Assembly (NCBI GenBank): GCA_041586815.1
Contig: JBFGZM010000001.1
Coordinates: 1 to 42,912, forward strand
Source: Marinobacterium sp.
GTDB lineage: Bacteria; Pseudomonadota; Gammaproteobacteria; Pseudomonadales; Balneatricaceae
Length of the DNA: 42,912 nt
Direction of reading: 5' to 3'
Shown here piece after piece: positions 35,804 through 39,726 of this stretch. Position 1 is the first letter of the stretch; every line of letters starts with the position of its first letter. The notes below the pieces were generated by a model. The model made no database searches, had not been told where the DNA came from, and saw only the letters and a program-made list of their open reading frames with translations. Made by a program: the position numbers and the translations under genes.

Positions 35804-36655
35804 TTATACCTTGGTAACCCAGACACCGACATCCAGCGTGGAGCTGGCTGTGCCACGGTAGGAGCCGGCGATCGGCGGTACGGCCCCTGGCAGGCGGGCA
35901 ACGGCCACCGCTATATGATCGCTGCCGGCGATCTTGCCGATGGTCGGATCAAACCCCTTCCAACCAGCCCCAGGCAGGTAGACTTCTGCCCAGGCGTGGG
36001 TGGCGCCGTTGCTGTCCGCTGCCAGGATGGCATGCAGGTAGCCGCTGACAAAGCGGGCAGCCAGCCCCAGGTAGCGAGCGGCTTCCATAAAGAGCACCGC
36101 AAAGTCGCGGCAGGAGCCGGTGCCGTATTCCAGCGTCTGGCGGGCGCTCTGTACGCCAGGTTCTTCCCGCACACGGTAGATCAGGGTCTGGTAAATATGC
36201 TCGGCGATGCGCTGTAGCAGGCTATAGGTCTGTATTTCTTCACCGGCCTGCCAGAAGTTGCCGATCCAGGTGCCTAGCAGGGCACAGGTGTGTGCATCGG
36301 GCAGCGTATGGTAGGGCGCCAGCATGGGCTCGTCATTCGGCTGGTAGTTGAACGGATAGCTCAGTGCATAGTCCGACACCAGGAAGTCCAGCGGGGCTTC
36401 GTTGTACTGCTGAATAATGACTTCGCTTTTGACGACCAGCTGGCGCGTGGGCTGGGTAAAATTGGCCAGGGCGACGGAATTGTCTTCGACATCCCGGTGC
36501 CACAGGAGTGTGGCCGCCGGACTGATGTCCAGGGAAAACGACTGGATACGCAGCTCATGGTCTTCCCGTGGCCGCAGCAGCAGCTTGTGTTCGCCCAGAG
36601 CTACCGTGTCGGTAAAGTTGTAGTAGGTGTGATGCACAATCTTGTAGCGTTGCAT
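35804..36655 (-). CDS. Transglutaminase-like protein (Bact_transglu_N-type N-terminus + core)
   Basis: HHTYYNF...LLLRPR...DVEDN N-terminus; triad motifs GSCRDFA, HAWAEVY, FDPT; ARFVSGYL. Confidence 0.9.
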   Translation of the reverse strand: MQRYKIVHHTYYNFTDTVALGEHKLLLRPREDHELRIQSFSLDISPAATLLWHRDVEDNSVALANFTQPTRQLVVKSEVIIQQYNEAPLDFLVSDYALSYPFNYQPNDEPMLAPYHTLPDAHTCALLGTWIGNFWQAGEEIQTYSLLQRIAEHIYQTLIYRVREEPGVQSARQTLEYGTGSCRDFAVLFMEAARYLGLAARFVSGYLHAILAADSNGATHAWAEVYLPGAGWKGFDPTIGKIAGSDHIAVAVARLPGAVPPIAGSYRGTASSTLDVGVWVTKV

Positions 36656-36733
36656 AATGTGATCCCGAATGTCGTGCTCAGAGCGATTAGTGAAGCCCTG
36701 TACTGCAGGTGCCAGGGTATCGAGCCGCGTCAG

Positions 36734-37540
36734 CTATCCGCCTGGATAGCCCTGCTCGTCAATGTACTCCACGCTGACCCGTTGTGCCCTGGGGTAGAGA
36801 GCCGGTCCAAACTGGTTGTAAACCGCAACATCGGCGGCATCCCGGCCATAGCCGATGGCAACGTAGCCGCCGTGAAGCTGGGACTGAGTGGCATCGAAGG
36901 TATACCAGCGATCTGCCACGTAGGCCTCGAACCAGGCGTGCAGGTCCATGGGTTCCAGGTTATGCAGATATCCCACCACCATACGCGCGGGGATGCTCAG
37001 GCTGCGACACAGGGCGATGCCCAGATGGGCCAGGTCGCGGCATACTCCCCAGCCTCTTGCGTTGACCTCAGCGGCCGAAATCTGGATATCGCTGCTTTCG
37101 GGCTGGTAGGCAATGGTATTGCGCAGCCAGGTTTCGATGGCAGCGACCTGATCATAGCCTGGGGTATAGCCCGTGGTGATGCCGTGGGCCATCTGGCTGA
37201 AACGGTCCGATTCGCAGTAACGGCTGGGCAGCAGGTAATAGAGTGCGGACTCGGGCAGGTTCTGGATCTCGACGAAAGGGGCCCCGGGAGCGCGATCGAT
37301 GTGGTCCGAGGTCATCACTTCAGCCGCGGTGTGGATCTCAAAGGCCCCCGGTGGCGCAATAAGGCGTTGGCACAAATTGCCGTAGTTATCGGTGAATTCG
37401 AAAACGGGCAAGCTGGGTACCAGTTTGTACTGCTCGCTGGCAATCCATTGCTGGGCGCCGCTGCGCGGTCGCAGCATCAGCACAAACGGCGTCGGTACGG
37501 CGATGTCGAATGTCAGATCACAACTAGTTTTTAACCACAT
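36734..37540 (-). CDS. Transglutaminase-like protein
   Basis: [45 protein letters not shown]; start ATG 37540 with GGAAAGGA RBS. Confidence 0.9.
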
Positions 37541-37718
37541 GGTTCCTTTCCTTCGAATTACACTGGATGGCTCACTAGAGAGATACGGCCTCAGACCTGT
37601 TGTACGCTTGTGAACAGATCCCCTCATCGTCAGCAGAGGCTGGTATTTCACTGTACAGGCTTGGCGCCTGAAGTAACGGCTTAATTTGCACGCTAGGGCC
37701 GTGGTGACCCAGGCCTGC

Positions 37719-38156
37719 TCAGCTTTGCAGCAGTTTTTCAAACGTATCGGCGCCAGGCCCCAGCGGCTGACCGTAGCTGAATTCCACATAGTTGCCATTG
37801 GGATCACGCAGGCCGCAATAGTAGCCCACCGGAAAGGGCTCATCCCGCGGAGCCCAGACGAGGCAGCCGGCTTTCTCGGCTTGCTGTGCAATCCTGTCGA
37901 CAGCCTCGCGGCTATGCAGGGCAAAGCCGAAGTGGCGATAGTCATTATCCGGCAGGCTCAGGTCCCTGCCGCCGTCCATCAGCACGAAGATAAAGTCGCG
38001 TTCGCGCCCGGGTTCTGCCATCCAGCTGATGGTCTGTCGGCTGCTGCGGCGCTCATGCACGATGCGCATGCCGCAAAAGTTCTGGTAGAAGGCAACACAG
38101 GCGGCCATGTCCGAGACATGGAGGGCGAGGTGGGTAATGCGGGCTGTAGTGGACAT
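37719..38156 (-). CDS. VOC/glyoxalase-family protein
   Basis: [11 protein letters not shown]...[24 protein letters not shown]; AGGAG RBS before ATG 38156. Confidence 0.88.
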
Positions 38157-38195
38157 CCGGGAGCTCCTGTTCAAATCCGCTGTCAGGTGAACTAG

Positions 38196-38591
38196 TTATA
38201 CACCCTGGTGACCCATGGGGTCTGTCTGGGGACAACTTTCAGCTGTGGATAATGGCGGTTTGTCATGGGCTTAAATGTTATCCACGAATACTGTGTATAA
38301 GATTGTGAATAAGGTATGGGTACAGATCCAGAGCCTTGCGGAGCCGGTGTATTGCCTGATGAGTGCGTTTTTTGAACGGTAAAAAAGACAGGTTTTCAGC
38401 AACTTGCATTGTGTATATGTGTAGAAAAAAGGTGTCTTTGGAGGTGAGCTGTCAAGCCAAATCGGAAAAATTTCCTGGCCTGACTCGATGTGTTATGCAC
38501 AGAATGCAGGGGTAACCATGTGTATAACTTAAGGGTAAATGGATGGGGCGCCGTCATGCCGGCGTTTGCCGCCAATGCTCAATTCATGAGC
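38196..38591. promoter_or_regulatory. Intergenic DnaA-box cluster with Fis- and IHF-like sites (DARS/datA-like element)
   Basis: Five exact TTWTNCACA matches (38244, 38292, 38304, 38493, 38519) plus 1-mismatch boxes (38196, 38278, 38410, 38418); Fis-consensus 15-mers at 38363 and 38577; IHF-like 13-mer at 38394. Confidence 0.75.
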
Positions 38592-38697
38592 ACTCAATAA
38601 CGGCAGCTGCAGAGGTGTCTGAAAAGGCAGGCTGGACGGTTCGACAAGAGATACGCGCGGTATGGGATGCACGCGGCGTCAACAAGGGTGTTCTGGC

Positions 38698-39726
38698 TCA
38701 GCCGGTGGCATCCAGTGGCAGAGCGAGGCCAGCCAGGTTCAGCAGAATCGCGGTCAGGGGCAGCCAGGGGTCGCCACTGCGGGCGCCTTTCACCAATCGG
38801 TCGACCTCGGCGGCCTGTTGCAGCAGGCTTTCCAGGGTGGCCGGGGAAAGGCGTTTGGTTGTGCTGCGCACCAGCTGCTTGCGCTTGCCGAACAGCCGCT
38901 GTTGCTGGCACAGACTGTCAAAGGCTGTGCCCTGTTGCAGGCCGCGCTGCACGGCATGCAGGATGCGGATTTCCCGCGCCAGAGCCCAGAGTACCACCGC
39001 AGGTTCCGAGCCTTCCTGGCGCAGTACCTGAATAATGCGGGTAACACGCTGGGGCTGGGCGCCCAGAGCGGCGTCGGTGAGGCCGAAGATATCGAAGCGG
39101 GAGCTGTCCGATACGGCGTCGATTACGTCGTCGGCGCTGAGGGTCTTGTTGGGAAACAGCAGCTGCAGTTTGCTCATTTCCTGGCGGGCGGCCAGCAGGT
39201 TGCCTTCGACGCGCTGACACAGCACTTCGACAGCACTGTCATCCAGGCGTATGTCCATCTGCACTGCACGGCGCCGGATCCATTCGGGCAGCTGCGACGG
39301 CTCCACCGGCCAGAGTTCGACAATCACGCCACTCTTGTCGACAGCCTTGAACCAGGCACTTTTCTTGGCACCGGCATCGAGCTTGTCGGCAATGATCAGC
39401 AGAACGTTGTCGGGGGCGGGGTTGACCAGGTACTGCTGCAGCATGTCGCTGGCATTCTTGTTCAGCTTCTGGCTGCCAAGACGCAGTTCGATGATCTTGC
39501 GTTCAGCAAACAGCGACAGGGCGCTGGCACATTCAAGCAGGTATTCCCACTTGAAGCTGCCATCGACGTGCAAAACTTCCCGTTCGCTAAAGCCCTGATC
39601 GAGAAACGCCTTGCGCAGCAGATCGCAGCTTTCCTCGGCCAGCAGGGGTTCGTCGCCGGTGACCAGATAGACCGGCGCGACACCCTGTTTCAGGCGCGCG
39701 CCGAGCTGTTCCGGCTTCAGCTTCAT
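38698..39726 (-). CDS. holA: DNA polymerase III delta subunit
   Basis: VYLVTGDEPLL, LSLFAERKIIEL, VEGNLLAARQE, FDIFGLTDA; leuS-lptE-holA synteny. Confidence 0.95.
   Translation of the reverse strand: MKLKPEQLGARLKQGVAPVYLVTGDEPLLAEESCDLLRKAFLDQGFSEREVLHVDGSFKWEYLLECASALSLFAERKIIELRLGSQKLNKNASDMLQQYLVNPAPDNVLLIIADKLDAGAKKSAWFKAVDKSGVIVELWPVEPSQLPEWIRRRAVQMDIRLDDSAVEVLCQRVEGNLLAARQEMSKLQLLFPNKTLSADDVIDAVSDSSRFDIFGLTDAALGAQPQRVTRIIQVLRQEGSEPAVVLWALAREIRILHAVQRGLQQGTAFDSLCQQQRLFGKRKQLVRSTTKRLSPATLESLLQQAAEVDRLVKGARSGDPWLPLTAILLNLAGLALPLDATG

What the first reader, a model, noticed from the sequence alone, without database searches (positions are those of the whole stretch)
38196..38591. Two-module DARS-like DnaA-box element with Fis and IHF sites downstream of holA
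Seen: this AT-richer intergenic stretch holds five exact and at least four near DnaA boxes. Module A is TTATCCACG-5nt-TGTGTATAA-3nt-TGTGAATAA (38278-38312). Module B is TTATGCACA-5nt-CAGGGGTAA(degenerate)-3nt-TGTGTATAA (38493-38527). Each is followed about 50 bp later by a perfect GnnYRnnWnnYRnnC Fis-consensus 15-mer (GTGCGTTTTTTGAAC 38363; GCTCAATTCATGAGC 38577), so the core+Fis unit repeats at a 214-215 bp offset although I see no similarity between the spacers. Between the modules is an IHF-like site TTTCAGCAACTTG (38394; one mismatch to WATCARNNNNTTR) preceded by an A-tract. Established: E. coli DARS cores are three boxes, one opposed to two tandem ones, and DARS2 needs Fis and IHF. The 5-nt/3-nt spacing matches the DARS1 core as I recall it. 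Inference: this is a DnaA-reactivating (or datA-like titrating) locus with a doubled architecture, in a context (next to holA) different from the E. coli uvrB/mutH sites.
Basis: partly seen in the sequence, partly recalled or inferred. Interest (0 to 1): 0.8.

Follow-up and report, generated by a model that had tools for sequence, protein, structure and literature searches.

The report
Tandem DnaA-recharging-type module beside holA
The gap after holA holds a conserved non-coding array of DnaA, Fis and IHF binding motifs whose core is spaced exactly like the E. coli sequences that recharge the replication initiator DnaA, followed by a weaker second copy, so it likely helps time DNA replication rather than being the origin.

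Summary
Observation confirmed. Core A (38278-38312) has the E. coli DARS geometry: one box opposed to two, 5 and 3 nt apart. Core A, Fis +85, module B +215 and Fis +299 keep their spacing in 9 of 9 genus genomes, the IHF motif in 8 of 9. It is not oriC: GC skew switches at gidA/dnaA, about 0.6 Mb away in a complete relative. The first unit is common: such cores occur in 85 of 121 class-wide genomes, mostly followed by IHF (+120), a reverse box (+204) and often Fis (+85); this genome has four such units. This scan reported that family before on other DNA. New here: (1) a second, degenerate core+Fis in tandem, found beside holA only in Marinobacterium and Pontibacterium records in one exact-pattern scan of 185,579 species; (2) the order is core-Fis-IHF, the reverse of DARS2; (3) DnaA Gln208 and Fis Gln68, which E. 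coli DARS2 uses, are both alanine here. E. coli's DARS2 region also has a second core, so doubling is not unique. Best reading: a DARS-type ADP-release site (55%); rival: a datA-like DnaA sink (22%). Activity is untested.

The parts
38196..38204 (+). Upstream DnaA box (1 mismatch), close to the start of the glyoxalase-family gene
   Evidence: invariant in the 6 closest genomes, absent in G005/G006/G008
38227..38252 (-). Two upstream boxes: 38227-38235 (2 mismatches) and 38244-38252 (exact)
   Evidence: partly kept in the 6 closest genomes
38278..38312 (+). Core A: box I (+, 1 mismatch), 5 nt, box II (-, exact), 3 nt, box III (-, exact); DARS core geometry
   Evidence: E. coli cores; present in 9 of 9 genus genomes
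38315..38323 (-). Weak fourth tandem box after core A (3 mismatches), same offset (+37) as in module B
   Evidence: several invariant positions in the 9-genome alignment
38363..38377 (.). Fis-consensus site A at core +85
   Evidence: GnnYRnnnnnYRnnC kept at +84/85 in 9 of 9 genus genomes with different sequences; same offset in 19 of 35 independent core clusters
38380..38406 (+). A-tract plus IHF-like site (13-mer 38394-38406, core +116)
   Evidence: at most 1 mismatch in 8 of 9 genus genomes, 2 in G006; 8 of 9 key columns invariant
38410..38428 (-). One-mismatch DnaA boxes at +132 and +140/142
   Evidence: +132 kept in the 6 closest genomes, a box at +143/144 in G005/G006
38451..38457 (.). 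Invariant GTCAAGC (+173); likely the right half of a third, imperfect Fis site (full consensus match in G005)
   Evidence: also at +173/175 in paralogous modules
38493..38538 (+). Module B: exact box (+), 5 nt, degenerate box (4 mismatches), 3 nt, exact box (-), 2 nt, weak box (3 mismatches); starts at +215
   Evidence: +214 to +216 in 9 of 9 genus genomes; single copy in each of 5 genomes searched
38577..38591 (.). Fis-consensus site B at +299 (84 after module B start)
   Evidence: kept at +298/299 in 9 of 9 genus genomes and at +300 in G013 and G028
38698..39726 (-). holA (DNA polymerase III delta), last gene of leuS-lptE-holA, transcribed toward the element (context)
   Evidence: TIGR01128 E=2.7e-85
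37719..38156 (-). Glyoxalase/VOC-family gene, starting about 120 bp beyond core A (context)
   Evidence: PF00903 E=2.6e-12

Best explanation
This conserved DnaA/Fis/IHF motif array is likely a DARS-type site that recharges the replication initiator DnaA by stripping ADP from it, with the degenerate second module likely acting as an accessory or control arm. Shown: the motifs, their spacing, their conservation and the distance from the origin. Inferred from E. coli DARS: ADP-DnaA would load on box II, pair head to head with DnaA on box I, be steadied by box III, release ADP and rebind ATP. Inferred from the layout: IHF at +116 lies about midway between core A and module B, so its bend would fold module B back onto core A. 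Fis at +85 and +299 would tie activity to growth phase. Module B, with strong outer boxes and weak inner ones, would fill mainly when ATP-DnaA is high and so damp the site, as E. coli DARS2 box V does. The protein contact would have to differ from E. coli's, because DnaA residue 208 and Fis residue 68 are alanine.
For: Core spacing and orientation are those of DARS1 and DARS2 (PMC6868365 passages). E. coli box V lies at +211 in the same orientation as module B's first box at +215, and its IHF sites lie at +93/+109 against +116 here (PMC4245941 supplement S10). Conservation falls on the motifs: 31 of 45 box positions and 8 of 9 IHF key positions are invariant in 9 genomes, against 38 of 248 other positions. 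Fis at +84-86 follows 19 of 35 independent core clusters and IHF at +115-122 follows 20 of 35, against slid-window means of 0.37 and 0.87 (maxima 3 and 5). In the class sample the counts are 13 and 21 of 31, with control means 0.25 and 0.68. Paralogous modules sit beside unrelated genes, one in a gap between convergent genes, which fits a gene-independent role. The genome encodes Fis, IhfA and an Hda-sized DnaA paralogue (name recalled); ihfB is in 3 of 3 close relatives searched. DnaA keeps R227, F239, K243, R285 and L290.
Against: No binding or ADP-release data. DnaA has Ala at E. coli position 208 (30 of the 30 best-scoring relatives), and E. coli Q208A releases about 40% instead of 90% of ADP on DARS1 (PMC6868365 section 15). 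Fis has Ala at 68 in 5 of the 6 genomes examined (G050 not read); E. coli Q68A is moderately impaired (PMC11724364 passages). The order is core-Fis-IHF, whereas DARS2 is core-58 bp-IHF-64 bp-Fis and moving these sites by 5-10 bp lowers activity. G013 and G028 keep both cores and Fis B but lack Fis +85 and IHF +116. No core lies upstream of rppH in 5 of 5 genomes checked (family name recalled), so this is not a positional orthologue of DARS2. A DiaA-like gene scores below the family cut-off.
Confidence: 0.55

Rival explanations
1. It works like datA: a DnaA sink or IHF-dependent hydrolysis site that lowers active ATP-DnaA after it is replicated.
For: At least 12 full or near boxes in 340 bp. 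In the wider family the distal box (+202-206) points the same way as boxes II/III across an IHF site (13 of 35 clusters; 19 of 31), as datA's boxes do (PMC5742627 passages). Ala208 weakens the ADP-release route. The element lies 0.55-0.62 Mb from dnaA, so it is copied early.
Against: datA's essential boxes all point one way and minimal datA lists no Fis site. Here the opposed box I at exactly 5 nt is kept in all 9 genus genomes. The same-direction distal box is lost in this genome (5-7 mismatches).
Confidence: 0.22
2. It is a transcription control region: DnaA, Fis and IHF regulate the glyoxalase-transglutaminase genes, or bound DnaA blocks read-through from leuS-lptE-holA.
For: Boxes reach within 40 bp of the glyoxalase gene start. 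No intrinsic terminator follows holA. DnaA binds 3-bp-spaced box pairs at E. coli promoters and is described as a roadblock (PMC11317965).
Against: No sigma-70 promoter match. The same unit occurs beside unrelated genes and between convergent genes. A paralogue of this very element has moved with a different gene. G013 and G028 keep the cores at holA.
Confidence: 0.12
3. It is oriC or a second replication origin.
For: Dense DnaA boxes with IHF and Fis motifs.
Against: GC skew is positive through the whole window bar three 1-kb bins. In complete G001 it is positive on both sides of the element and switches near gidA. An AT-rich (14% GC over 50 bp) box cluster upstream of gidA exists in this genome on C322. 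The element's lowest 50-bp GC is 30%.
Confidence: 0.03
4. It is a structured RNA or small gene and the boxes are incidental.
For: Strong intergenic conservation.
Against: No Rfam match in the gap. The consensus fold has a covariation penalty of +3.0 and only 4 of 69 pairs show a two-sided change. Fis sites vary in sequence but keep the DNA-binding consensus.
Confidence: 0.02

Closest known systems
E. coli DARS2 (rppH/ygdT-mutH gap; PMC4245941, PMC8682772, PMC11724364)
   Same: 5/3 three-box core; IHF site about 110-120 bp from core start in the same orientation; a full-consensus box at +211 (here +215) pointing the same way; Fis sites; a second opposed 5/3 cluster further on (+316 in E. coli).
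   Different: Fis lies between core and IHF here, beyond IHF in DARS2. The second core starts at +215 and has its own Fis site. Gene context is holA, not rppH-mutH. At least four related units per genome. DnaA Gln208 and Fis Gln68 are alanine.
E. coli DARS1 (bioD-uvrB gap; PMC6868365)
   Same: Identical core spacing, exact box II, mismatched box I.
   Different: DARS1 needs no Fis or IHF and shows no match at +85 or +116; it has no second module.
E. coli datA (DDAH site)
   Same: DnaA boxes on both sides of an IHF site; a 3-nt tandem pair.
   Different: datA's essential boxes all point one way; no opposed 5-nt pair; no Fis site in the minimal region.
The ~215-bp core-Fis-IHF-box module noted earlier by this scan in other Gammaproteobacteria (unpublished AI notes)
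   Same: Core, Fis +85, IHF +116-121; tested here.
   Different: The usual reverse box at +204 is lost in this genome and a second core+Fis follows at +215; 0 of 31 class-sample cores have a forward box at +205-217.

Membership tests
DARS (core) | Three DnaA boxes, box I opposed to II and III, 5 and 3 nt spacers | tested here: met
   core A vs E. coli DARS1/DARS2
DARS (core) | Intergenic, between oriC and terminus, not the origin | tested here: met
DARS (core) | Promotes ADP release from DnaA and raises ATP-DnaA in vivo | not testable with these tools
   needs biochemistry and deletion strains
DARS (core) | DnaA Gln208 head-to-head contact (E. coli mechanism) | tested here: not met
   Ala here and in 30 of 30 best-scoring relatives; Ala in 46 of 66 readable class genomes, Gln in 6. 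E. coli Q208A is impaired, not dead.
DARS (core) | Module B is itself a full core with a strong box II | tested here: not met
   4 mismatches in box II here and in the 6 relatives scored; a full second core only in G013
DARS2 proper | IHF and Fis consensus sites downstream of the core | tested here: met
DARS2 proper | Order core-58 bp-IHF-64 bp-Fis | tested here: not met
   here core-50 bp-Fis-16 bp-IHF; an imperfect third Fis site beyond IHF is possible (+164 in G005)
DARS2 proper | Position at rppH-mutH | tested here: not met
   no core upstream of rppH in 5 of 5 genomes
DARS2 proper | Fis Gln68 contact with DnaA | tested here: not met
   Ala in 5 of 6 genomes examined, 1 unread
datA | All essential boxes in one direction around one IHF site | tested here: not met
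   opposed boxes at 0/+14 and +215/+241 (for the definition)
datA | IHF-dependent hydrolysis of DnaA-bound ATP | not testable with these tools
   needs biochemistry
oriC | GC-skew switch at the site | tested here: not met
oriC | AT-rich unwinding element | tested here: not met
   lowest 50-bp GC 30% vs 14% upstream of gidA

The most novel reading that the evidence does not exclude
The core-Fis-IHF-box unit, not E. coli DARS2, is the common form of DnaA control site across Gammaproteobacteria, and it works without the Gln208 and Gln68 contacts known from E. coli. In Marinobacterium a tandem copy turns it into a two-core switch in which IHF folds an ATP-DnaA-sensing second core onto the recharging core, possibly gated by read-through from the leuS-lptE-holA operon.
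Probability: 0.25. Interest if true: 0.75.

Novelty: new variant of a known kind. Interest (0 to 1): 0.47.

Why it matters
DnaA recharging sites have been studied, in the papers I found, only in E. coli, with homologues listed for eight close relatives. This element gives a compact test case in a genus with named type strains: does a DARS core work when the two residues E. coli relies on are naturally alanine, and what does a second core add? A yes would extend the DnaA switch to most Gammaproteobacteria and point to a different protein interface. A no would mean that the most conserved DnaA-box arrangement in this class has another job.

Tried and rejected
oriC: rejected. Structured RNA: rejected. 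Sigma-70 promoter or intrinsic terminator: none found; the invariant GTCAAGC reads TTGAC on the minus strand but has no -10 partner by eye. DARS2 orthologue at rppH: none. One search used a mis-registered module B pattern that missed even this genome, so its 0 of 61 is void; the corrected pattern was run on 5 genomes only. My core threshold missed G008's core A and the B modules of G006, G008 and G028; they were read. Two of the 61 holA flanks were short (G037 284 bp, G047 1112 bp). One search used 48 of the 52 cores; the 4 left out were not fetched, and if all lack the sites the Fis and IHF counts fall to 19 and 20 of 39. One search used 31 cores from 29 of the 30 loci returned, out of 132 listed matches. 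The original DARS paper (Fujimitsu 2009) was not held under the two ids tried; its supplement may list more distant homologues. File 1 of the PMC4245941 supplement was not searchable. No RNA holder listed. DNA contigs of four marine runs of one study cover the gap in overlapping pieces, with one differing letter listed inside it (38258; 77 further rows not shown); they may include the source sample and are not independent. DiaA: inconclusive. Residue 208 does not predict cores: 39 of 46 Ala and 5 of 6 Gln genomes have one.

Full report
Observation. The 38175-38697 gap lies between the end of holA (38698-39726, minus strand) and a glyoxalase-family gene. It holds five exact and five one-mismatch DnaA boxes. 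With 171 exact boxes in 3.73 Mb, five in 332 bp has a Poisson probability of 7e-12, and only one other such cluster exists. Core A (38278-38312) is the best 5/3 core of the genome. Counting from its first base, there follow a weak fourth box (+37), a Fis consensus (+85), an A-tract and IHF-like site (+116), near boxes (+132, +140), GTCAAGC (+173), module B (+215, +229 degenerate, +241, +252 weak) and a second Fis consensus (+299). Module B repeats core A's four box offsets and the Fis offset, but it has no IHF site or distal box of its own before holA.

Conservation. A DNA search found the gap in 5 of 8 same-genus genomes and in 0 of 52 others. Reading 1.5 kb downstream of holA in all 61 genomes added diverged copies in the other 3 genus members and in G013 and G028 (one other genus); none of the remaining 50 showed a core. 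In the 9 genus genomes module B starts at +214 to +216, Fis A sits at +84/85 and Fis B at +298/299 in 9 of 9 (2 lack the central A/T), and the IHF site has at most 1 mismatch in 8 of 9. Invariant columns: 31 of 45 in boxes, 8 of 9 IHF key positions, 7 of 12 Fis key positions, 38 of 248 elsewhere. G028 has module B at +215; G013 has a full second core at +205; both keep Fis at +300 but lack Fis +85 and IHF +116. Kin are not independent, so these counts show persistence, not a p-value.

Range of the doubled form. One exact-pattern scan of 185,579 species genomes for boxes II-III plus a second core 160-190 bp on gave 9 stretches. Seven lie at holA: four Marinobacterium records, two Pontibacterium records and one Oceanospirillaceae MAG. 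Two are Firmicutes box arrays with no box I and no holA. The window's HolA is 95.6% identical to that of the M. rhizophilum record, so the host is likely a Marinobacterium (inference). Exact matching misses variants, and the tool may omit near records.

Not the origin. dnaA is on another contig. In complete G001 dnaA is at base 16 and the element at 619 kb; in G002 they are 548 kb apart. Twenty 20-kb samples of G001 show positive skew from 5 kb to 2.4 Mb, including both flanks of the element, and negative skew from 2.8 to 5.16 Mb. The switch falls near gidA, where an AT-rich box cluster lies; its homologue in this genome is on C322.

The first unit is a common module. The core pattern (up to 2 mismatches) hits 35 of 61 relatives and 85 of 121 class-wide genomes, with 0 hits for the reversed control (84 of 120 without G099, which is unpublished and enters only the tallies). 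Among 35 clusters of cores chosen without regard to Fis or IHF, 19 have Fis at +84-86, 20 have IHF at +115-122 and 13 have a reverse box at +196-206; slid windows give means of 0.37, 0.87 and 0.82. In 31 class-sample cores the counts are 13, 21 and 19, and 0 have a forward box at +205-217. This genome has four core+Fis units (here, C4 twice, C250) and complete G001 has five. The unit is about 213 bp long, so module B begins where a second unit would; I took the unit length from earlier notes of this scan and checked it. In G005 and G006 a paralogue lies 3 kb away; in G001, G003 and G004 the same paralogue sits elsewhere beside the same ~600-residue gene, with Fis +85, GTCAAG +173 and boxes at +201/+215. 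The element therefore duplicates and moves as a unit.

Comparison with E. coli. DARS1 and DARS2 cores have the same 5/3 layout. DARS2 has IHF sites at +93/+109, the essential Fis sites 64 bp beyond them, and box V at +211. ATP-DnaA spreading from box V over weak boxes displaces Fis (PMC8682772). E. coli also has a second opposed cluster at +316 with an exact IHF match 119 bp after it, and DnaA ChIP is stronger there (213) than at the core (78) (PMC11317965 Table 1). So doubling as such is not new, but a second core at +215 with its own Fis site is not in the papers I saw. DnaA here is Ala at 208, as in 30 of the 30 best-scoring relatives and 46 of 66 readable class genomes (55 of 121 did not match the pattern). 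Fis is Ala at 68. Both E. coli alanine mutants are impaired but not dead.

Mechanism. Shown: motifs, spacing, conservation, position. Inferred: ADP release at core A; an IHF bend about midway between core A and module B; growth-phase input through Fis; module B as an ATP-DnaA-sensing or steadying arm; possible gating by read-through from holA, since no terminator was found and datA is regulated by read-through (PMC11724364). I put DARS-type recharging at 0.55, a datA-like sink at 0.22, transcription control at 0.12, origin at 0.03 and RNA at 0.02; the remainder is for roles not considered.

Literature seen. PMC6868365: passages and sections 15 and 21. PMC4585315, PMC10380432, PMC8682772, PMC11724364, PMC5742627, PMC12371093: passages. 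PMC4245941: passages and passages of supplement file 2. PMC11317965: part 1 of 4 and passages. Fujimitsu 2009: not seen. PMC10380432 says DARS-like sequences are conserved in many proteobacteria. Seven searches listed no paper on a DARS at holA, in Marinobacterium, or with the core-Fis-IHF order; I saw listings only, and subscription papers are mostly missing.

Verdict. A real, conserved DARS-type element and a new variant of a known kind. The family is one this scan has met repeatedly; the tandem second core and the alanine substitutions are what this case adds. Interest 0.47.

Noticed in passing
G000 C4:10982-11082 and C4:12512-12611; C250:1111-1211: Three more core+Fis(+85/86)+IHF(+121) units; the two on C4 flank one cysK-like gene 1.5 kb apart and have the reverse box at +204. 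Kept in G001, G003, G004 and G007; the C4 pair also in G002.
   Followed up: partly
G000 C28:4205-4500: A 5/3 core upstream of a metA-like gene, with IHF at +130, no Fis at +85 and a forward box at +284; G005 and G006 have a second core there at +277/278.
   Followed up: partly
G000 C68:3138-3425 (L001): A second dense cluster of six exact DnaA boxes between convergent genes (NYN-like gene and betaine ABC transporter; labels recalled), not in the 5/3 layout and not next to dnaA. Unexplained.
   Followed up: no
G000 C43:4233-4313: A lone module-B-like array (exact box, degenerate middle box, near box) with no core 215 bp upstream.
   Followed up: partly
G000 C4 near 12685 and C28 near 4425: The palindrome TGTCAATATTGACA occurs in two different modules where this element has GTCAAGC; the binding protein is unknown.
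   Followed up: no
L015:952-1083 (E. coli K-12, upstream of mutH): E. coli's second 5/3 cluster has an exact IHF match 119 bp after it, the spacing of the widespread module; the characterised DARS2 core has +93/+109.
   Followed up: partly
L015:847-880: E. coli DARS2 box V is followed by the same 5-nt spacer as module B's first box here and then by a degenerate opposed box, so it may be a relic second core.
   Followed up: no
class sample G073, G093, G066, G069, G139: Two or three cores within 500 bp at other offsets (124-492 bp), so tandem cores arose more than once.
   Followed up: no
L003 DnaA (P0001): Besides Ala at 208, DnaA has Phe where E. coli has His136 and a long domain II, 519 aa in all.
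   Followed up: no
window 35804-38156: Glyoxalase-family gene and two transglutaminase-like genes inserted between lipA and holA; other relatives have different genes here.
   Followed up: partly
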